A DNA stretch of 64,000 nucleotides from Candidatus Latescibacterota bacterium (GTDB lineage Bacteria > Latescibacterota > UBA2968 > UBA8231), in assembly GCA_965223905.1 (NCBI GenBank), contig CBDCXV010000010.1, forward strand, positions 256,001 to 320,000. Direction: 5' to 3'. Of this stretch, positions 2,729 to 46,688 are shown piece after piece. The position numbers and the translations under genes are program-made. The notes under the pieces were generated by a model. The model saw nothing but the letters and a program-made list of their open reading frames with translations. It was not told where the DNA came from and ran no database searches. Positions within the stretch are counted from its first letter, which is position 1; every line of letters starts with the position of its first letter.

Positions 2729-3763
2729 TCAGCGCCGGATCCGGGCGAGCTTGGCCTGGAAATCCTCCCGGTCGAGCACCTCCCTGTTGACCAGGGCCGC
2801 GGGGATCTTCCCCGCCATGATCTCCTGCGCCTGGGCGAGCTTGCCGCTCCAGGCGGTGGTGTAGTACTCGTCGGTGTGGCAGAGCGAGTGCGGGGAGACG
2901 ACGACGTTCTCCATGCGCAGCAGCGGGTTGTCCGGGTCGACCGGCTCCTGCTCGAAGACGTCGAGGCCGGCCCCCCGGATCGTCCCCTGCCGCAGCGCCT
3001 CGATCAGGGCCGGCTCGTCGACGACGGAGCCCCGCGAGGTGTTTACGAGGTAGGCGGACGGCTTCATGCGCCGCAGCTCTTCGGCGCCGATCAGGTGCCG
3101 CGTCTCGCCGTTCAGGGGCACGCAGATGCAGACGAAGTCCGACTCGGCCAGCAGGCGGCCGCGGTCGACCAGCTCCACCCCGAGGCCGTCCAGGGCTTCC
3201 GGTCTCGCGTACGGATCGCAGGCCAGCAGCCTCATGGCGAACGGCTGCGCCAGGACGAGGACCTCGCGCCCGATGTTGCCCACCCCGATCACTCCCAGGG
3301 TCTTCCCGGTCAGCCCTTCCCCCTTGTAGTCGGCGCGATCCGCCCAGCGCCCTTCGCGGGTGACCCTGTCCTTGTTTATCAGCTTCGTAGCCAGGGCGAG
3401 GATGTGGGTCATGTTGGTCACCGCCATCGGCCGGCGCACGGCGTCGGGAGCGGTGCAGAGCATCACCCCGGCCCCGGTCAGGGCGGCGACGTCGATGTGA
3501 TCGTACCCGACCCCCATGAAGAGCACGGCGATCAGGCGCTCGCTGTCGGCGACGGAGCGGGTCGTCCACGGGACCCCGGCGGAGATGACCATGTCGCAGT
3601 GGGCGACCTGCCCGGGCGCGATCTCCGGCAGAAGCTCGGCGAGCACCTCGTGCTCGACCCCTGGCATGCGGTCGAAGAGACCCAGCCCCTCCCCAGGTAT
3701 TATGAGGTTCTCCCCGGCGTCGAACAGGTCTCGGGTGATGGCGATTCGCACAGTGTCGCTCAT
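2729..3763 (-). CDS. D-2-hydroxyacid dehydrogenase
   Basis: GVGYDHID, GVIGVGNIG, VNTSRGSVVDE, LDVFEQEP, SPH motifs. Confidence 0.92.
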   Translation of the reverse strand: MSDTVRIAITRDLFDAGENLIIPGEGLGLFDRMPGVEHEVLAELLPEIAPGQVAHCDMVISAGVPWTTRSVADSERLIAVLFMGVGYDHIDVAALTGAGVMLCTAPDAVRRPMAVTNMTHILALATKLINKDRVTREGRWADRADYKGEGLTGKTLGVIGVGNIGREVLVLAQPFAMRLLACDPYARPEALDGLGVELVDRGRLLAESDFVCICVPLNGETRHLIGAEELRRMKPSAYLVNTSRGSVVDEPALIEALRQGTIRGAGLDVFEQEPVDPDNPLLRMENVVVSPHSLCHTDEYYTTAWSGKLAQAQEIMAGKIPAALVNREVLDREDFQAKLARIRR

Positions 3764-41314: not shown

Positions 41315-41608
41315 CTTCCTCGGGACAGGACAGGAATATCGCTTATGCCCGGAACTCCGGGCAGCAACCCTCAGCGTGGGCTAGGCTCTTGGCTCCCGAC
41401 TACCGCCCAATTTCCGTGCTTTAGTTGAAGAACCAATCGAAGAGTACTCCTAAGAGGCCAACAACAAATGCGCTTAGTGCGATTACGCGAACGAAATACC
41501 AGACAGTATTCATGAAATCCCACAGCCTATCTTTCCAATGCTTCTTCAAAGGTGATCTCCCTCCTCCCGACCTAACTAAGATATCGTGACCCTATGCCGG
41601 GATTACCC

Positions 41609-42723
41609 ATGACTGCTGAAAACCGGATAGAACGGATGGAAGCGCGGATCCGGGAGGCAGGCGAGCTGGCTTCCGACTTCGCCCGCGATCCGCACCGGCC
41701 GGCCTGGCACTTCACGCCGCCGGCCGCCTGGATGAACGACATCAACGGCGCCCTCTACTGGAAGGGGCGCTACCACATCTTCTACCAGCTCAACCCGGAC
41801 GGGGCCTACTGGAACCGCATCCAGTGGGGGCACGCCTCGAGCGCCGACCTCGTGCACTGGGTCCACCATCCTGTGGCGCTGACGCCGGAAGCGGACGGAC
41901 CGGACCGCATCGGCTGCTTCAGCGGCGGCGCCCTGGTCGACAAGGAAGGAGTTCCGACGCTCATCTACTACGGCAACCCCGACGGCCTCTGCCTCGCCCG
42001 CAGCAGCGACGACCTGCTGCTCGAGTGGACGAAAGACCCGGGCAATCCCGTGATCCCCCAGCCGGAAGAAGGGAGCGCGGACTTCGGCCGCTACACCATC
42101 CACGACCCCTGCGGCTGGTTGGAGGGCGGCCTCTACTACGCCGCGGTCAACAGGCGTGACCCTCAAGGCCAGGGGGACGGGGCCTACCTGTTCAGATCGC
42201 GGGAACTGCGGAACTGGGAGTTCGCCGGCCTGTTCTACCAGTCCCGCCGGGAGTGGACGGAGGGAGGCGAGGACTGCGCCGTGCCCGACTTCTTCCCGCT
42301 CGGCAACCGGCACCTGCTGCTCTTCTGCAGCCACCTGCAGGGAACCCAGTACTACATCGGCGAGGTCCGGGAGGAACGGTTTTACCCGGACATCCACGGG
42401 CGCATGAGCTGGGAAGGGGGCCATCTCGGCGGGCCGCGGACCCTGCTCGACGCCCAAGGCCGGCGCGTCTTCTTCGACTGGATCCGCGAGCTGCGCGGCG
42501 TCGAGCGGGAGCGCGCTTCCGGATGGTCCGGCGTCATGACCGCCCCGCGGCTGTTGTCGCTGGATTCGGACGGTCACCTGCAGATCGAACCTGCACCGGA
42601 GCTCGAGGTATTGCGGCTGGATCAGGGCGGGCACGGGCCCGTTGACCTGGCCGCCGATTCCGAGGTGCCAGTGGAAGGGGTCGGCGGCGACTGCCTGGAG
42701 CTGGCAGTCGAGATCGATCCGCT
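41609..42723 (+). pseudogene. glycoside hydrolase family 32, N-terminal part (interrupted by IS)
   Basis: RPAWHF...WMNDING, HIFYQ, WGHASSADL.HW, FSGG, HDP, EDCAVPDFF; breaks at LAVEIDP. Confidence 0.92.
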
Positions 42724-42761
42724 GGTAGTCCCTCAGTTTGAAATATTCTATATTGAGAAGA

Positions 42762-42801
42762 GTGAGGTCCCCCCTGCAATACCATCCGGGGGGGACCTCA
42801 C
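42762..42801. repeat. 13-bp perfect inverted repeat in the IS left end
   Basis: GTGAGGTCCCCCC (42762-42774) / GGGGGGACCTCAC (42789-42801). Confidence 0.85.
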
Positions 42802-42804
42802 AGT

Positions 42805-42873
42805 GGGGCAGGCTTAGTGCGCCACCGGGCTTCCGATCCTGGCTAGGCGAGGGTTCGATTCCCTCCTGCTCCA
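42805..42873 (+). ncRNA. tRNA/tmRNA-like element lacking a D-arm
   Basis: Acceptor-like stem GGGGCAG/CTGCTCC+A; T-arm GAGGG-TTCGATT-CCCTC; central nested stems GCTTAG/CTAGGC and CCGGG/CCTGG. Confidence 0.6.
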
Positions 42874-42898
42874 CTTTCTCTTTTCCAAGAACGCCGTC

Positions 42899-43747
42899 AT
42901 GAACCGCCTGCTTCTAAAAAAGCGCGAGCTCATCCTGAAGTGCCTTGTGGACGGAATGTCCTTGCTGGCCACTTCGCGCATTGCCTGTGTCGCTGAAAAC
43001 ACCGTAGCGCGATTGCAGCTTCTCGCCGGCGAAGTCGCTTGCGACTTTCAGGACGAACATTTACGCAACCTCAAACTGGACAGCATCGAGCTCGACGAAA
43101 TCTGGTCGTTCGTGTACGTCAAACAGAAACGTCTCGAGCAGGCGAAGCGACCACCGGAAAACGCCGGCGACTCGTGGGTCTGGATAGCCATCGACCGAAA
43201 GACCAAGCTGGTCCCCTGCTGGTTAGTGGGCGGACGCTCACAGGAAGATGCCAATCTCTTCATCGAGGACCTCGCGCAACGGTTGTCAGGAGCTCCACAG
43301 CTGACCTCAGACGCCTACGCTCTCTACATCGAAGCTATCTATCGAGCCTTCGGTTCTCAAGTCGATTACGCCATGCTGAAGAAAGAGCACAAGCCCGACT
43401 CGCCTTCCCGCAAGACGCGCATCTCCGGCGATCCGGACGACGATCTCATTTCCACCTCGATTGCGGAACGGCAGAATCTTACCATGCGCATGTCGATGCG
43501 GCGCTTCACCCGGCGTACCAACGCTTTCTCGAAACGATTTCGCAATCACGCCTTTGCCGTCGCGCTCTACTACCTGAACTACAACTTCTGCCGTGTCCAT
43601 CAGACCATCGAAACCACTCCGGCCATCAAAGCCGGGGTGACGAATCGTCGTCTGTCTCTTCTGGAAGTGGCTCAGATGACGTTAGAAGCCGAGCCAAAAC
43701 CGAATCGTCCGAAACGGTATCGGAAACAGAATCGCGATTATCGATAG
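42899..43747 (+). CDS. IS1-family DDE transposase
   Basis: N-terminal HTH (LVDGMSLLATSRI), IELDEIWSFV, WVWIAID..TKLV, TSDAY..Y, STSIAERQNLTMR...RFTRRTNAFSK. Confidence 0.92.
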   Translation: MNRLLLKKRELILKCLVDGMSLLATSRIACVAENTVARLQLLAGEVACDFQDEHLRNLKLDSIELDEIWSFVYVKQKRLEQAKRPPENAGDSWVWIAIDRKTKLVPCWLVGGRSQEDANLFIEDLAQRLSGAPQLTSDAYALYIEAIYRAFGSQVDYAMLKKEHKPDSPSRKTRISGDPDDDLISTSIAERQNLTMRMSMRRFTRRTNAFSKRFRNHAFAVALYYLNYNFCRVHQTIETTPAIKAGVTNRRLSLLEVAQMTLEAEPKPNRPKRYRKQNRDYR

Positions 43748-43831
43748 CATCTCCGACAGCTTTGGCAAACTGGATCGGGTAATCTTGGCGACCGATGTTA
43801 TGCCGTTTTCCCAGCGAAATTCTTGCTTTCG

Positions 43832-44086
43832 TCATACTTCCTCCATTTGTTCGCGCAACTCCCTGCGAAGCTGAGGAATGGTGATGACCTTGGCGGCCAA
43901 ACTGGCGTTTTGTCCCTGCAAATCATCCAGCTGGGCATGCATCACCTGAAAACCTTCCCGCATTTCCTTTTCCAGCCGATCGAAGCGCTGGTCCATCTGC
44001 TCAAAACGCTTGAGCACCTTCTGATTGAACGCTTCCTGAGCATCGAAGCGCTTGAGCATCTCTTTCTGGAACTCTTCCTGGCTCAT
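43832..44086 (-). CDS. small coiled-coil protein (IS cargo, paralog 2)
   Basis: GAGGAATGCCGGA-ATG; MSQEEFQKEML...RFEQMDQRFD...LRRELRE. Confidence 0.8.
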   Translation of the reverse strand: MSQEEFQKEMLKRFDAQEAFNQKVLKRFEQMDQRFDRLEKEMREGFQVMHAQLDDLQGQNASLAAKVITIPQLRRELREQMEEV

Positions 44087-44114
44087 TCCGGCATTCCTCA
44101 CTTGATTCGAGGTT

Positions 44115-44381
44115 TCATGCTTCCTGGAGCTCCCGTTCGCGAAGTTCCCGGCGTAACGCCGGAACAGTCACTATAGTAGCAGCCAACCCGGCTAGCTGGG
44201 ACTGCATGTCATCCAGTTTTTCCTCGACGTGGTCGAAGCGCTTGTCCATTTGCTCGAAGCGCCGAAGAACTTCCTGATTGAACTCTTTCTGATCCTTCTG
44301 GAACTCCAACATCTGATTCTGGAACTCCAACATCTGATTCTGGAACTCCAACATCTGATTCTGGAACTTTTCCTGGTTCAT
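44115..44381 (-). CDS. small coiled-coil protein with heptad repeat (IS cargo, paralog 1)
   Basis: GAGGAATACCGGA-ATG overlapping the upstream stop (ATGA); MNQEK(FQNQMLE)x3...RFEQMDKRFD...LRRELRE. Confidence 0.8.
   Translation of the reverse strand: MNQEKFQNQMLEFQNQMLEFQNQMLEFQKDQKEFNQEVLRRFEQMDKRFDHVEEKLDDMQSQLAGLAATIVTVPALRRELRERELQEA
44296..44368. repeat. 21-bp tandem repeat, about 3.5 copies
   Basis: TTCTGGAACTCCAACATCTGA at 44296, 44317 and 44338, partial at 44359. Confidence 0.95.
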
Positions 44382-45634
44382 TCCGGTATTCCTCCACGTA
44401 AAGGATAGCGGCCAACACCGCAGCGCCAGCGAGGTTCGCCGGCCGTCACCTTGGCCGACCGAGGCGGAACCTGATAGGGTTCGGCTCGAGACACGTCCAC
44501 CTCGTATCCCAGATCCGCTAGCGCCTGAATCGTAATCAGGCTGAGAGGACGAATTTCGTCCGAGACGGCTCCGGACGTCATGATCTCGTTCCCCAGAACG
44601 TCTTCTCGCCAATGGGAGAAATAGTTTCCGTTCTCGACCGGCACTCCTTTTCTAGCCGCACGCGCCCTTTCGCGATACCATCCGCCTCCGGCTGACTCAA
44701 ACGCCGCTCTGCTCAAAATTCCCTTGAAGTAGGTGTCGGCATTCAGAGAACGATTGACCAAGCGCTCGTCCCACTCTTCTCCTCCCTGTAGCAGGATGTG
44801 ACCCAATTCATGGATCATCGTACGAAACACGTGAGAATCGGATTCAGAGCGAATAAACTCGGAATCCAGAACCACGAGGCCGTTGATGGCAACTCCGGAA
44901 GAAGATCGAAACCACAAAGTCTGAGCACTGCCGTTTACGCCGTACCCCAAATCAGCGGTAGTTGCATGAACGCGCACGTCGTCGATAAGATCATTTTCTA
45001 CAATCCTTCCAAACCACTGCTCGTGAGCACTGCCGGCCCACCAGGACATGTCGTCGGTATCCAATGTATGCCAGGCGAAATAATACCTGTCCTGGACATC
45101 GTTCGTAACGATCCGCTCCCACGTGACCGCGGCGCGCTCGAACAGCTCCCGATGGCGGTCGGTGAACTCGTTGCCTTCGGCGAACACGAGCTCGATGTCG
45201 AACAGTGAAGGTCTCAGGGGCAAACCGATCCCGTAGGGGTTGGACACACCGGAATCGGCCATCTCCGCCCAGACGTAGGCGCCCAGCAGTCCCAAGTCGA
45301 TCCATCCGGTGACTCCGTCCCGGTCGATGTCGAGCAAGTCCAGATCCAGAGGAACATGGTACCAAGGACTGGAGAGATGAATCCAGAGTCCCTCCACGTC
45401 GAAAATGTTCACCCACCCGTCCACGACCCCGTCTCCCAGAAGGCGTCCATCCACCGTCGCCTTGGGGCTGCCCCGCTCGCTAGACGGCCGCTGGATGGGC
45501 AACTCGATCCCCCGTTCAGCAAACCAGGTTCTCATTTCAGTGTACGCTTGCTCCCTGTCGGGCTCGTGTACCCGTGAGGGCGACTCACAGCCGGCCAGCA
45601 AGACCGACAACAGCAGGAGGATGGTGGCAATCAT
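44378..45634 (-). CDS. lipoprotein zinc metalloprotease, leishmanolysin/M8-like, with dockerin/EF-hand-like segment (IS cargo)
   Basis: LLAGC lipobox; DIDRDGVTGWIDL; HELGH...SHW.E....NEIMT...LSLITI.AL.DLGY. Confidence 0.82.
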   Translation of the reverse strand: MIATILLLLSVLLAGCESPSRVHEPDREQAYTEMRTWFAERGIELPIQRPSSERGSPKATVDGRLLGDGVVDGWVNIFDVEGLWIHLSSPWYHVPLDLDLLDIDRDGVTGWIDLGLLGAYVWAEMADSGVSNPYGIGLPLRPSLFDIELVFAEGNEFTDRHRELFERAAVTWERIVTNDVQDRYYFAWHTLDTDDMSWWAGSAHEQWFGRIVENDLIDDVRVHATTADLGYGVNGSAQTLWFRSSSGVAINGLVVLDSEFIRSESDSHVFRTMIHELGHILLQGGEEWDERLVNRSLNADTYFKGILSRAAFESAGGGWYRERARAARKGVPVENGNYFSHWREDVLGNEIMTSGAVSDEIRPLSLITIQALADLGYEVDVSRAEPYQVPPRSAKVTAGEPRWRCGVGRYPLRGGIPE

Positions 45635-45881
45635 CCTTGTCCCCTTCCCGTGTGTGCCCGAGAAGCCGGGCTGTGCCACCGTCCACAGCAGTCCGGGACG
45701 ATCCCGCTTATTTGCGAGACGCCAGGGTAATTACTCCCGGCGCCGGGATTTGATTCGCTGTTGTATTCAGCAGGAAACCCGGCGACACGCAGGGTCCGCT
45801 GTGAAACGGTGGCATCTGAGAACATACGCAAAATACCCACTTGACAATAGTTAGTGTCCTTTCTGTCTTTCTGCGCCTCTT

Positions 45882-46039
45882 GGACCGGTGACCCCCCCAC
45901 CACTGACAGGGCTACTCACCCTGGGCATTTCGAGAATCGACACCCCGTAGCACGAGGTGAGCAACGCAGAGGATGTCGATTTCTCTCCCTTGTGGGCCTT
46001 GTCAATCCCAGGTGTGCGGTGGTCACCGGCCCTCCTTTG
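45882..46039. ncRNA. candidate structured RNA, tandem unit 1
   Basis: Closing stem CCGGTGACC/GGTCACCGG with nested stems; homologous to unit 2 with compensatory changes; TTGACA at 45841 upstream on +. Confidence 0.5.
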
Positions 46040-46049
46040 ATGAACATTT

Positions 46050-46203
46050 GGGCCGGTGACCCAACCTGCCACCTGCCAAAGCTACTCGTCCGGGAAGAAT
46101 AGAATCGATACTCCGCAGCACGAGACGAGCAACGCAGAGCGTATCGACTTCCCTTCCTGTGAGCCTTGTCAATCCCAGGCAGGCGGTCACCGGCCCTCCT
46201 TTG
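46050..46203. ncRNA. candidate structured RNA, tandem unit 2
   Basis: Closing stem GGGCCGGTGACC/GGTCACCGGCCC; shares GAGCAACGCAGAG, GCCTTGTCAATCCCAGG and CCTCCTTTG blocks with unit 1. Confidence 0.5.
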
Positions 46204-46268
46204 CCGAAACCAGTGAGGAGATCGGTTTCGGCAAAAGACAGATCCAAATTTCAAACTGAGGCATTACC

Positions 46269-46688
46269 GATCCGCTGGAAGCGAAGGAGGTGGGACTGAA
46301 GGTGCTGCGCTCTCCTGGAGGCGAGGAGGAAACCGCAGTCTCCTGGGACGCCGAGGCAGCGGTGCTGCGGGTCGACCTCAGCCGGTCGTCCCTCGACCGG
46401 GAGATCCGCTACACCCGCTACCGAAGGCTTCAGCCGCACCTGACGGAGAGCGAGCAATACGTCACCGCCCAGGAGGGGCCGTTCGAGCTGCAACCAGGGG
46501 AGCTGCTGACCCTGCGAATCTTCCTCGACCGCTCGATCCTCGAGGTCTTCGCCAACCGCCGGCAATGCGTGACCCAGCGCATCTACCCGACGCGGCCCGA
46601 CAGCACCGGCGTCAGCCTGTTCGCGCGCGGGGGCGATGCCAGGGTGCGGTCGCTGCAGGCATGGACCCTGGCGCCGGCGCGGATGTGA
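46269..46688 (+). pseudogene. glycoside hydrolase family 32, C-terminal part
   Basis: [16 protein letters not shown]...[15 protein letters not shown]...TQRIYP, the GH32 C-terminal beta-sandwich. Confidence 0.92.

What the first reader, a model, noticed from the sequence alone, without database searches (positions are those of the whole stretch)
42805..42873. D-armless tRNA/tmRNA-like RNA with alanine identity elements, directly upstream of an IS1 transposase
Seen: the 69 nt fold into a 7-bp acceptor-like stem (GGGGCAG/CUGCUCC, discriminator A) stacked on a canonical T-arm (GAGGG-UUCGAUU-CCCUC). There is no D-arm; instead one long nested stem (GCUUAG/CUAGGC enclosing CCGGG/CCUGG, loop CUUCCGAU). 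CCA is not encoded. The transposase ATG lies 25 nt downstream with no SD. Established: G3:U70 plus A73 is the AlaRS identity set shared by tRNA-Ala and the tRNA-like domain of tmRNA, and the acceptor/T coaxial helix is what RNase P and the CCA-adding enzyme recognise. Inference: the element may be a tRNA mimic that processes or regulates transposase mRNA, or a tmRNA/SmpB decoy. I know of no described tRNA mimic in IS1 ends.
Basis: partly seen in the sequence, partly recalled or inferred. Interest (0 to 1): 0.85.

Follow-up and report, generated by a model that had tools for sequence, protein, structure and literature searches.

The report
Eroded alanine tRNA inside a transposon
A 69-base remnant of an alanine tRNA gene, with its top half intact and its lower half rebuilt, rides inside a jumping gene just ahead of the transposase, and relatives of this jumping gene often carry odd tRNA genes at the same spot.

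Summary
It is not a new RNA class. It is a tRNA-Ala gene of the host's own bacterial family: the acceptor stem is 7/7 identical to the host tRNA-Ala(CGC), and the 3' 27 nt are 89-93% identical. Its D arm and anticodon arm have been rebuilt by about ten indels and substitutions.

ARAGORN and Rfam (gathering scores) do not call it. The "long nested stem" folds no better than shuffled sequence. Similarity to tmRNA is only the generic T arm.

The element lies inside a 3,545-bp cargo-carrying IS1-family transposon (42724-46268, 8-bp target duplication) that split a GH32 gene. Two same-genus genomes have the empty site.

No second copy or close relative was found, and no RNA data exist. However, 12 of 95 related transposon loci carry a same-strand tRNA or tRNA-like gene within 600 nt upstream of the transposase (about 20-fold enrichment). 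One is a second D-arm-reduced Ala-type element. Several have Ala- or Ser-type bodies with UAU or UAG anticodons.

Best reading: a captured, non-decoding tRNA relic in the transposase leader that is still a plausible RNase P substrate. Whether it is selected is open. Interest is moderate.

The parts
41594..42723 (+). N-terminal part of a GH32 glycoside hydrolase gene, cut by the insertion. The open frame runs on into the IS and stops at the TAG at 42815-42817, inside the tRNA-like element.
   Evidence: Pfam Glyco_hydro_32N 193.4 bits; ORF 41594..42817; the gene is uninterrupted in G001 and G002.
42716..42723 (.). Left copy of the 8-bp target-site duplication GATCCGCT.
   Evidence: Direct repeat D20. 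A single copy is present at the empty sites of G001 and G002; the two flanks overlap there by 8 nt.
42724..42744 (+). Left inverted repeat (IRL), GGTAGTCCCTCAGTTTGAAAT.
   Evidence: Pair I1, 21 nt, 90% complementary to 46248-46268. It matches the family-wide IR consensus GGTAGTGNNTCAGTTTGAA at 16 of 17 specified positions.
42745..42761 (+). A+T-rich spacer. It is a possible but unproven promoter region.
   Evidence: Sequence. No sigma-70-type site was found by the simple scan of 42400-44000.
42762..42801 (+). Perfect 13-bp G+C-rich hairpin directly before the tRNA-like element. It has no T tail on the + strand.
   Evidence: Pair I8, 100% complementary; z -5.72, 0 of 200 shuffles as good; the paired arms occur once in the genome.
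42805..42873 (+). tRNA-Ala-derived tRNA-like element. Acceptor 5' strand 42805-42811; remodelled D/anticodon core 42812-42848 with 8-nt loop 42830-42837; T arm 42849-42865; acceptor 3' strand 42866-42872; discriminator A at 42873. U at -1 (42804). No encoded CCA.
42874..42898 (+). 25-nt pyrimidine-rich leader without a Shine-Dalgarno sequence and without the family's usual promoter.
   Evidence: 73 of 95 family loci have a TTGAC-like box between -50 and -21, and the window copy has none.
42899..43747 (+). IS1-family transposase, a single 282-aa ORF.
   Evidence: Pfam DDE_Tnp_IS1 30.8 bits, cut-off 24.1; NCBIfam transpos_IS1 54.2 bits, below its cut-off of 100; plasmid homologues annotated 'IS1 family transposase'; full-length alignment with 10 relatives.
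43832..45679 (-). Cargo genes on the opposite strand: two coiled-coil-like small ORFs (43832-44101; 44115-44612, whose probable true start is further in) and a 433-aa ORF with a lipoprotein-like N-terminus and weak metalloprotease similarity.
   Evidence: ORF list; Peptidase_M8 20.8 bits, just under its cut-off of 21.
45880..46210 (.). Two direct copies of a unit of about 168 bp with internal inverted repeats, next to the right end.
   Evidence: Families D3, D7, D8, D15 and pairs I2, I11, I14, I15.
46248..46268 (-). Right inverted repeat (IRR).
   Evidence: Pair I1.
46269..46276 (.). Right copy of the 8-bp target-site duplication GATCCGCT.
46277..46688 (+). C-terminal part of the split GH32 gene.
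   Evidence: Pfam Glyco_hydro_32C 92.9 bits for 46290-46688.

Best explanation
The 69 nt are a captured and internally remodelled tRNA-Ala gene, of the CGC-isoacceptor type found in the host's own bacterial family. It travels as cargo inside a 3,545-bp IS1-family transposon.

The acceptor stem, T arm and discriminator are still those of tRNA-Ala. The D arm is reduced to a 2-3-bp stub. The anticodon arm is lengthened and carries an 8-nt loop. The element therefore no longer looks able to decode.

It sits where relatives of this transposon have their own promoter for a near-leaderless transposase mRNA. That promoter is missing here, so the transposase is most likely transcribed through the element. 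The transcript could start in the IRL-proximal A+T-rich stretch or come by read-through from the same-strand GH32 gene. This step is inferred.

Most likely way of working, if it works at all: the transcript is treated as a tRNA precursor. RNase P cuts between U42804 and G42805. A 3' nuclease cuts after A42873. This frees a small tRNA-like RNA, which could receive CCA and alanine, and uncouples a transposase mRNA with a 25-nt SD-less leader from whatever lies upstream.

Shown: origin, anatomy, that it is part of the mobile unit, and that the host has the processing enzymes. Inferred: transcription, cleavage, and any effect on transposase level. Whether the minihelix is kept by selection or is simply a young relic is not settled.
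For: Origin:
- The acceptor stem GGGGCAG/CTGCTCC is identical to the host tRNA-Ala(CGC) and (UGC).
- tRNA-Ala(CGC) is the best of 58 host tRNA/tmRNA genes in local alignment.
- The 27-nt T arm plus 3' acceptor is 93% identical to tRNA-Ala(CGC) of G007 and G021 and 89% identical to the host's own copy.
- The global alignment shows the D-loop deletion and the anticodon-arm indels.

Part of the mobile unit:
- It lies between the IRs at 42724 and 46268.
- The empty site with a single GATCCGCT is present in both same-genus genomes.

Uneven change:
- Against the host tRNA-Ala(CGC), 3 of 32 alignment columns differ in the acceptor/T minihelix and 20 of 48 in the core (Fisher p 0.002). Against G007's tRNA-Ala the figures are 2 of 32 and 18 of 45 (p 0.001).
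- All 12 minihelix pairs are intact.

RNase P-type determinants read from the sequence (the rules are recalled, not tested): U at -1, G1:C72, a 7+5-bp stack, and T loop TTCGATT.

Host machinery:
- Type-A RNase P RNA, 294.6 bits.
- A PolyA_pol/CCA-adding family enzyme, 125.7 bits.
- 13 of 57 host tRNA calls lack an encoded CCA.

Missing promoter: 73 of 95 family loci have a TTGAC-like box at -50 to -21, usually with a TAnnnT box ending 4-7 nt before the ATG. The window copy has none.

Family context:
- ARAGORN finds a same-strand tRNA within 600 nt upstream of tnp in 10 of 95 loci, none on the opposite strand, and 10 in the remaining 580 kb. That is 20.6-fold enrichment (Poisson P 1e-10).
- Adding the window element and L074 (found by my scan, Rfam tRNA 53.2 bits) gives 12 of 95 loci. 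L113 holds a second, ARAGORN-negative element beside its tRNA.
- The tRNAs lie inside the IS boundaries in L012, L028, L070, L074, L088, L091, L102, L103 and L108.
Against: - No second copy was found. The own genome has none. 168 genomes of the phylum gave only short hits (at most 43 nt), mostly the T arm of ordinary tRNAs. The metagenome scan gave one locus, a 47% identical transposase.
- Conservation and covariation of this particular element therefore cannot be tested.
- The closest transposase relatives (L006 and L007, and L002 in the same genome) have no such element, so the IS does not need it.
- If the changes are counted as events rather than alignment columns, the contrast between minihelix and core is not significant: 3 events in 32 positions against 10 in 41, p 0.13 (the events were hand-counted).
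- The remodelled core is no more stable than shuffled sequence.
- No promoter was found by the consensus scan, so transcription is an assumption.
- RNase Z was found only as weak partial matches below cut-off.
Confidence: 0.55

Rival explanations
1. It is an inert pseudogene. A cargo tRNA-Ala gene decayed by a few slippage indels. It is either not transcribed or misfolds, and it has no effect on the transposase. The intact minihelix is luck and youth.
For: - The element is a singleton and is absent from the nearest IS relatives.
- The event-based test is not significant (p 0.13).
- The core is not more stable than chance.
- The family shows a spread from good tRNAs (52-71 bits on Rfam tRNA) to sub-threshold ones (L113a 15.5 bits; L091 called by ARAGORN but not by Rfam at gathering score). 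This looks like ongoing decay of cargo tRNAs.
Against: - All 12 acceptor and T-stem pairs and the T loop are intact, while the core took about ten changes.
- The family promoter is missing, so tnp expression has to pass through the element. An intact minihelix in a transcript is expected to be an RNase P substrate whether selected or not (recalled knowledge).
Confidence: 0.3
2. One reading: a dedicated tRNA or tmRNA mimic that titrates or recruits AlaRS, SmpB or EF-Tu to regulate the transposase.
For: - G3:U70 and A73 are present.
- A second D-arm-reduced element with G3:U70 and A73 (L113a, 68 nt) lies upstream of a related transposase in another phylum.
- The cargo tRNA of L028 also has its host's tRNA-Ala acceptor stem.
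Against: - Similarity to tmRNA is only the generic T arm (12.8 bits).
- The host tmRNA has a different acceptor stem and T stem.
- There is no tag-coding region or pseudoknots, and no conservation data.
- Nothing in the sequence points to SmpB.
Confidence: 0.05
3. A working but aberrant decoding tRNA: an Ala-charged, D-arm-less adaptor with an 8-membered anticodon loop (a frameshift or missense suppressor), one of the anticodon-switched cargo tRNAs of this IS family.
For: - Relatives carry canonical tRNAs with Ala- or Ser-type bodies and UAU or UAG anticodons.
- Eight-membered anticodon loops are known from frameshift suppressors (recalled).
Against: - There is no D arm, and hence no G18/G19 elbow contacts.
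- RF00005 does not report it even at E up to 10.
- No D-arm-less elongator tRNA is known to me in bacteria (recalled).
- The transposase is one intact ORF that needs no frameshift.
Confidence: 0.05
4. An att-like fragment: the duplicated 3' end of a tRNA gene left by a tRNA-targeting integrative element, or a remnant of the insertion target.
For: Near-exact match of 27 nt to the tRNA-Ala 3' end.
Against: - The 5' acceptor strand and remnants of the D arm and anticodon arm are present in the correct order.
- The element lies inside the IRs, and the insertion target was a GH32 gene, not a tRNA.
- No integrase is among the ORFs of the unit.
Confidence: 0.03

Closest known systems
Bacterial tRNA-Ala, specifically the host's tRNA-Ala(CGC) at G000:C9:607482-607557
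   Same: Identical 7-bp acceptor stem with G3:U70, discriminator A73, the same T loop TTCGATT, a T stem kept through compensating changes, and recognisable remnants of the D stem and anticodon stem in the right order.
   Different: Linker positions 8-9 and about 7 nt of the D loop and D stem are deleted. The anticodon arm is lengthened by insertions and has an 8-nt loop. CCA is not encoded. Neither ARAGORN nor Rfam calls it. It lies inside a transposon.
mascRNA / MEN-beta tRNA-like small RNAs (Rfam RF01684), cut out of long transcripts by RNase P and RNase Z
   Same: The same reduced cloverleaf layout: 7-bp acceptor, 2-bp D stub, short anticodon-like stem, canonical T arm. It is the best relaxed Rfam hit at 28.8 bits. 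The proposed mode of action is the same, namely a processing signal embedded in a longer transcript (recalled for mascRNA).
   Different: The score is below the gathering score of 42.5. mascRNA is a vertebrate nuclear RNA at the 3' end of a lncRNA, with no evolutionary link. Here the element is in a bacterial 5' leader and is demonstrably derived from a local tRNA-Ala.
tRNA-like domain of tmRNA
   Same: G3:U70 acceptor, T arm, alanine identity.
   Different: Only the 18-nt T arm matches the tmRNA model, at 12.8 bits. The host tmRNA has different acceptor and T stems. The two acceptor strands are 54 nt apart, leaving no room for a tag ORF or pseudoknots.
tRNA genes carried as cargo by mobile elements (phages, islands) and tRNA-mRNA co-transcripts such as the E. 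coli tRNA-tufB operon (both recalled)
   Same: A tRNA-type gene on a mobile element, on the same strand and directly upstream of a protein gene. Related IS copies carry full tRNAs in this position.
   Different: The carrier is a DDE-type IS1-family insertion sequence, for which I found no report. The window's copy is not a canonical tRNA.
Anticodon-switched, mistranslating tRNAs. Examples: tRNA-Ala anticodon variants (PMC10543346) and the bacterial tRNA-ProA family (PMC10404621). For both I saw only the search listing and the start of the abstract.
   Same: Cargo tRNAs of related IS copies combine identity features that do not depend on the anticodon with foreign anticodons: an Ala-type acceptor, or a Ser-type long arm with G73, joined to UAU or UAG.
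   Different: None of this was tested for charging. The window's own element lacks a usable anticodon arm. Its link to these tRNAs is position and Ala-type origin only.

Membership tests
tRNA (Rfam RF00005 / ARAGORN) | Recognised by the covariance model or ARAGORN | tested here: not met
   ARAGORN finds 0 genes in the window. Rfam gives nothing at gathering score. No RF00005 match is listed even at E up to 10.
tRNA (Rfam RF00005 / ARAGORN) | 7-bp acceptor stem, 5-bp T stem and 7-nt T loop of T-psi-C type | tested here: met
   Read directly. All 12 pairs are standard or G:U. The T loop is TTCGATT.
tRNA (Rfam RF00005 / ARAGORN) | D arm (3-4 bp stem, loop with GG) and 7-nt anticodon loop with U33 | tested here: not met
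   Only a 2-bp stub is present, with no GG-containing D loop. The loop is 8 nt, CTTCCGAT.
Alanine identity (AlaRS substrates) | G3:U70 pair and A73 (rule recalled) | tested here: met
   G42807 pairs with T42870. A is at 42873.
Alanine identity (AlaRS substrates) | Actual aminoacylation with alanine | not testable with these tools
   Needs an in-vitro charging assay.
tmRNA | Match to the tmRNA models; tag reading frame and pseudoknots between the acceptor strands | tested here: not met
   ARAGORN finds no tmRNA in the window. RF00023 matches only 42848-42865 at 12.8 bits against a gathering score of 47. The genuine host tmRNA is at C11:1830621-1830975.
mascRNA-menRNA (RF01684) | Score at or above the gathering score | tested here: not met
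   28.8 bits against 42.5.
IS1 family insertion sequence | Transposase with the IS1-type DDE domain | tested here: met
   PF03400 at 30.8 bits, cut-off 24.1. Homologues on plasmids are annotated 'IS1 family transposase'. NCBIfam transpos_IS1 scores 54.2, below its equivalog cut-off of 100, so this is a distant branch.
IS1 family insertion sequence | Terminal inverted repeats starting GGT and a short target duplication (8-9 bp; recalled for IS1) | tested here: met
   IRs at 42724-42744 and 46248-46268. The 8-bp duplication is proven by empty sites in two congeners.
IS1 family insertion sequence | Classical IS1 layout: about 770 bp, with insA and insB joined by a -1 frameshift (recalled) | tested here: not met
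   The transposase is a single 282-aa ORF and the unit is 3,545 bp with cargo genes. This resembles the cargo-carrying single-ORF subgroup that ISfinder names after ISMhu11. That name is recalled, and 0 papers in the library hold it.

The most novel reading that the evidence does not exclude
tRNA or tRNA-like genes placed just upstream of the transposase are a selected, recurrent module of this cargo-carrying branch of the IS1 family. They are derived from host-lineage tRNAs whose synthetases ignore the anticodon (Ala, Ser), and from an Arg-like body, and they have been given foreign anticodons (UAU, UAG, GCU, often with C33). They would serve to decode or recode rare codons, or act as decoys against tRNA-targeting toxins. 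The window's element would be the minimal, non-decoding form of this module: an alanine-accepting minihelix that is cut out by RNase P and sets the level of transposase mRNA.
Probability: 0.15. Interest if true: 0.8.

Novelty: new variant of a known kind. Interest (0 to 1): 0.45.

Why it matters
The element itself is an example of how a transposon can pick up a host tRNA gene and keep only the half that the tRNA-processing and charging enzymes recognise. If it is processed, it would be a bacterial transposon counterpart of the mascRNA type of tRNA-like processing signal, and a simple way to insulate transposase expression from read-through.

The wider observation may matter more. One branch of the IS1 family carries tRNA genes next to its transposase in about one locus in eight. 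Several of these have identity/anticodon combinations that would misread the code if charged as their bodies suggest. My searches found no report of tRNA cargo in insertion sequences. This makes a testable question of whether small transposons spread recoding or decoy tRNAs.

Tried and rejected
1. Detectors. ARAGORN and Rfam at gathering scores find nothing. Relaxed Rfam gives only sub-threshold hits.

2. tmRNA origin. Rejected, because only the generic T arm matches.

3. A search for other copies or close relatives led nowhere.
- Own genome: none.
- Phylum: 168 genomes, only short hits (at most 43 nt), mostly the T arm of ordinary tRNAs.
- Metagenome scan with the transposase: 1 locus at 47% identity.
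- Genome contigs relatives are 43-51% identical.

4. Expression. No RNA holder is listed. The two holders of the stretch are DNA-type contig sets from one study.

5. Promoter. The consensus scan found 0 sites in 42400-44000. This scan does not cover non-sigma-70 promoters.

6. Folding energy as evidence. It is uninformative, because a genuine tRNA-Ala scores z -0.61.

7. Loop-target idea. The complement of the 8-nt loop occurs nowhere else in the transposon: 2 matches in the window, one being the loop itself, against 2.9 expected by chance.

8. Upstream hairpin as a repeated element. Its paired arms occur once in the genome.

9. Codon-supply idea for the cargo tRNAs. The result is mixed. CTA is high in the transposases of L074 and L088 (98th and 94th percentile). 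ATA is absent from L028's transposase. AGT is absent from L108's and L093's transposases, and AGC is unremarkable in both. The counts are tiny.

10. Pfam on 10 ORFs next to cargo tRNAs. There are only sub-cut-off hits: C2H2 zinc-finger families for L103 and DUF5343 for L028.

11. The 54-codon ORF 42738-42902. Its TGA overlaps the transposase ATG, so I considered it as a translational-coupling device. I did not pursue it, because it would have to be translated through the hairpin and the tRNA-like fold and it has no relatives to compare.

13. Literature. Searches found nothing on tRNA or tRNA-like genes in IS1-family elements. I read only listings and the starts of abstracts. Supplements were not consulted. 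Subscription-journal literature and ISfinder itself are not covered.

14. Tree. The careful search did not finish, so the quick tree was used.
Full report
OBSERVATION. The stretch 42805-42873 reads GGGGCAG / GCTTAGTGCGCCACCGGGCTTCCGATCCTGGCTAGGC / GAGGG-TTCGATT-CCCTC / CTGCTCC / A. The acceptor stem has seven pairs with G3:U70. The T arm is canonical. The discriminator is A and is followed by CTT, not CCA. The base before G1 is T. The transposase ATG is at 42899, 25 nt downstream, behind a pyrimidine-rich leader with no Shine-Dalgarno sequence.

ARAGORN calls nothing in the whole window, and Rfam calls nothing at gathering scores. With relaxed thresholds the best hit is the vertebrate tRNA-like mascRNA-menRNA model at 28.8 bits (gathering score 42.5). 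The tmRNA model matches only the 18-nt T arm at 12.8 bits.

The MFE fold is a mini-cloverleaf: a 2-bp D stub, then GCC/GGC plus CCGGG/CCTGG around an 8-nt loop. Its energy is -32.2 kcal/mol, z -1.70, and 10 of 200 shuffles fold as well. The central 37 nt alone fold no better than shuffles (z +0.17; 108 of 200). A genuine tRNA-Ala gives only z -0.61, so energy is a poor test here. What lifts it above chance is homology, not thermodynamics.

WHAT IT IS DERIVED FROM. ARAGORN finds 57 tRNA genes and one tmRNA in the 7.9-Mb genome. The best local alignment of the element is to tRNA-Ala(CGC) at C9:607482-607557 (score 41). The tmRNA scores 32.

The acceptor stem GGGGCAG/CTGCTCC is identical to that of the host tRNA-Ala(CGC) and tRNA-Ala(UGC). 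I searched the 154-nt leader against 168 genomes of the phylum. Apart from the window's own copy there were only short matches (at most 43 nt), most of them the T arm plus 3' acceptor (query 104-130) of ordinary tRNAs. The best were 93% identical, in G007 and G021. The G007 and G021 hits sit in tRNA genes that, read by eye, carry the Ala(CGC) anticodon.

The global alignment with the host gene shows what changed:
- the 8-9 linker and about 7 nt of the D loop and D stem are deleted
- there is one substitution in the D stem
- there are several small insertions and deletions in the anticodon arm
- there is one deletion in the variable loop

By alignment columns the changes are concentrated in the core. 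Against the host gene, 3 of 32 columns differ in the minihelix and 20 of 48 in the core (Fisher p 0.002). Against G007's tRNA-Ala the figures are 2 of 32 and 18 of 45 (p 0.001). Counted as events (3 against 10, my hand count), the contrast is not significant (p 0.13).

The host tmRNA has a different acceptor stem (GGGGGCG.../...CGCCTCC) and T stem. The element is therefore a tRNA-Ala gene of the host's own lineage, with the acceptor/T half preserved and the D/anticodon half rebuilt.

WHERE IT SITS. A 21-nt inverted repeat pair lies at 42724-42744 and 46248-46268 (GGTAGTCCCTCAGTTTGAAAT, 90% complementary). It is flanked by the direct repeat GATCCGCT.

The flanking ORFs are the N- and C-terminal domains of one GH32 glycosidase (193.4 and 92.9 bits). 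In both other genomes of the genus (G001, G002) the GH32 gene is uninterrupted. The two flanks overlap there by exactly 8 nt. Thus 42724-46268 (3,545 bp) inserted as one unit with an 8-bp target duplication.

The unit holds, in order:
- IRL
- a 17-nt A+T-rich spacer
- a perfect 13-bp hairpin (z -5.72), unique in the genome
- the tRNA-like element
- the 25-nt leader
- a 282-aa single-ORF transposase (Pfam DDE_Tnp_IS1 30.8 bits, cut-off 24.1; NCBIfam transpos_IS1 54.2, below its cut-off of 100; plasmid homologues annotated "IS1 family transposase")
- three opposite-strand cargo ORFs
- two repeats of about 168 bp
- IRR

The GH32 frame runs on into the IS and stops at the TAG at 42815-42817, inside the element. 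GH32 and the transposase are on the same strand.

RELATIVES. The transposase has matches in 20 of 101 related genomes, the own genome included. In genome contigs, 565 of 575 candidate stretches encode a relative, and 80 loci were kept, at 43-51% identity. The closest are 53% (L006) and 51% (L007). No closer relative was found. The terminal repeat GGTAGTGNNTCAGTTTGAA is conserved across the family.

In most members the IRL lies 1.1-2.5 kb upstream of the transposase, with cargo upstream, and the IRR lies 12-50 nt or about 1 kb after the stop codon. The window's copy has the opposite layout: IRL 175 nt before the ATG and cargo downstream.

The truncated copy in the same genome is L002, at C10:1287164-1287560. 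It is 65% identical over residues 1-72 and 84% over residues 187-249. Its IRL starts 39 nt before the ATG, with no tRNA-like insert.

Most family members have a TTGAC-like box at -50 to -21 (73 of 95), usually with a TAnnnT box ending 4-7 nt before the ATG (strict pattern 39 of 95). This implies a near-leaderless transposase mRNA. The window's copy lacks this promoter. The tRNA-like 3' half and 25 nt stand in its place. Transcription of the transposase through the element is therefore the simplest assumption, but it is an inference. The consensus scan found no promoter, and no RNA run is listed.

A FAMILY HABIT. I took 95 loci with a full-length transposase match. The window's own copy is included, and one place is counted twice (L006/L032). 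ARAGORN finds:
- a same-strand tRNA within 600 nt upstream of the transposase in 10 loci
- none on the opposite strand
- 10 in the remaining 580 kb on both strands

This is 20.6-fold enrichment (Poisson P 1e-10).

My acceptor-plus-T-arm scan adds three elements: the window's element, a 107-nt type-II tRNA in L074 (Rfam tRNA 53.2 bits), and a 68-nt element in L113 (L113a). That makes 12 of 95 loci.

Using the IR consensus, these tRNAs lie inside the transposon in L012, L028, L070, L074, L088, L091, L102, L103 and L108. Two tRNA-His genes (L049, L083) lie 60-63 nt outside the IRR and are flanking host genes.

Rfam scores the cargo tRNAs at 52-71 bits. L091 (ARAGORN only), L113a (15.5 bits) and the window's element are sub-threshold.

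On a quick ML tree of 94 transposases the 12 tRNA-bearing loci are not clustered. They need 12 changes, against a shuffled mean of 11.5, and well-supported branches force at least 5. The tRNA cargo is therefore gained, lost or exchanged repeatedly.

L113a is the closest parallel to the window's element. It has G3:U70, A73, an intact T arm and a 4-bp stub instead of a D arm. Its loop TTTGCAC is the tRNA-Ala(UGC) anticodon loop as I recall it. It lies upstream of a second tRNA and the transposase, in a Zixibacteria MAG.

ODD CARGO tRNAs (side finding; the identity rules are recalled).
- L028 carries a tRNA with anticodon UAU. Its acceptor stem GGGGATA/TATCTCC-A-CCA equals that of its host's tRNA-Ala(UGC).
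- L012 (same genus as the window) carries a type-II tRNA with G73 and anticodon UAU. Its 3' 29 nt are 93% identical to the host tRNA-Ser genes.
- L074 and L088 carry type-II, G73 tRNAs with anticodon UAG.
- L091, L093, L103 and L108 share an Arg-like body with loop CYGCTAA (anticodon GCU). By my reading of alignment A2, three of the four have C33.
- With L113b and L102a added, 14 of 20 cloverleaf pairs show compensating changes.

Whether these tRNAs are charged as their bodies suggest is untested. A codon-usage link to the transposase genes is inconsistent.

HOW IT MOST LIKELY WORKS. The element cannot be filed as a tRNA. It has no D arm, an 8-nt loop and no model match. What is left is the part that RNase P, the CCA-adding enzyme, AlaRS and EF-Tu read (recalled knowledge): U at -1, G1:C72, a 12-bp coaxial stack, a T-psi-C-type loop, G3:U70 and A73.

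The host has a type-A RNase P RNA (294.6 bits) and a CCA-adding-family enzyme (125.7 bits). 13 of 57 of its tRNA calls lack an encoded CCA. RNase Z is seen only as weak partial matches.

If the leader is transcribed, I expect cleavage before G42805 and trimming after A42873. That would release a small tRNA-like RNA and separate the transposase mRNA from upstream RNA, including read-through from GH32.

I put 0.55 on this combined reading (a captured tRNA-Ala relic, non-decoding, processed as a tRNA precursor). I put 0.3 on an inert pseudogene with no processing or effect. Small weights go to a dedicated AlaRS/SmpB mimic, an aberrant decoding tRNA, and an att fragment.

NOVELTY AND VERDICT. The tmRNA-decoy idea has no support. 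The claim of a designed mimic is weakened by three points: the clear origin from a local tRNA-Ala, the lack of any second copy, and the absence of the element from the nearest IS relatives.

The element is a new variant of known kinds: tRNA-derived elements, cargo tRNAs on mobile elements, and tRNA-like processing signals. The more surprising result is at family level. A cargo-carrying branch of the IS1 family repeatedly holds tRNA genes next to its transposase, some with mismatched body and anticodon. My searches found no report of this (listings and abstract starts only; no supplements). Interest 0.45.

Noticed in passing
L012:2458-2549(-); L028:2432-2507(-); L074:3773-3878(+) and 3094-3171(-); L088:3625-3718(+): Cargo tRNAs inside related IS1-family elements combine Ala-type or Ser-type bodies (host-matched acceptor stems; long variable arm with G73) with anticodons UAU or UAG. 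If they are charged according to body, they would misread AUA or CUA/CUG codons. The identity rules are recalled and charging is untested.
   Followed up: partly
L091:3745-3822, L093:3783-3859, L103:3749-3822, L108:3798-3873 (all +): Four IS copies from different hosts share a class-I tRNA with an Arg-like D arm and a conserved loop CYGCTAA (anticodon GCU; by my reading of alignment A2, three of the four have C33). The same four loci also carry the family's commonest cargo ORF, a small basic protein of about 80-110 aa. Their transposases do not cluster on the tree.
   Followed up: partly
L113:468-535(+): A second ARAGORN-negative, 68-nt tRNA-like element with G3:U70, A73, an intact T arm and a 4-bp stub instead of a D arm. 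It lies directly before another tRNA and a related transposase in a Zixibacteria MAG.
   Followed up: partly
L049:4948-5024 and L083:4948-5023: In two unrelated hosts the right end of the IS lies 60-63 nt upstream of a tRNA-His gene. This could be coincidence or a target preference.
   Followed up: no
about 60 nt upstream of tnp in most of L035-L114: The family transposase genes have a TTGAC-type box and a TAnnnT box ending 4-7 nt before the ATG (near-leaderless mRNA). These are often preceded by AAACTGA, which resembles the inner part of the terminal repeat in inverted orientation and may be a transposase-binding site for autoregulation.
   Followed up: partly
cargo regions of L035-L114: Recurrent cargo upstream of tnp. 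A small basic protein of about 80-140 aa as called (34 of 95 loci). A protein of about 380-410 aa with an HExxH motif and an HTH-like N-terminus, as I read its sequence (two clusters, 16 and 10 loci). Partner ORFs of 150-220 aa. None of these clusters was searched against Pfam.
   Followed up: no
window 42738-42902 (+): A 54-codon ORF starts at a TTG in the IRL, runs through the hairpin and the tRNA-like element, and ends with a TGA that overlaps the transposase ATG (ATGA).
   Followed up: no
window 44289-44369 and 45880-46210: Four 21-nt tandem repeats lie inside a coiled-coil-like cargo ORF. Two direct repeats of about 168 bp with internal palindromes lie next to the right inverted repeat.
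   Followed up: no
G000:C10:1287164-1287560(-) and G000:C11:743592-744455(-): Two further members of the transposase family are in the same genome. One is truncated, with its IRL starting 39 nt before the ATG. The other is full-length (47% identity), with a hairpin but no tRNA-like element in its leader and with cargo downstream.
   Followed up: partly
L123 (G138:C1:7132104-7135135): A dense tandem array of at least 25 tRNA-like genes within about 2.7 kb in a genome of the same class, including one 69-nt atypical member. It was found only because the T arm matched.
   Followed up: no
L014, about 230-140 nt upstream of tnp, opposite strand: A roughly 90-nt sequence has 12-nt terminal complementarity and an imperfect T-arm-like motif (GGTTCGATTCC) on the strand opposite to the transposase. 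Neither ARAGORN nor Rfam (gathering scores) calls it.
   Followed up: no
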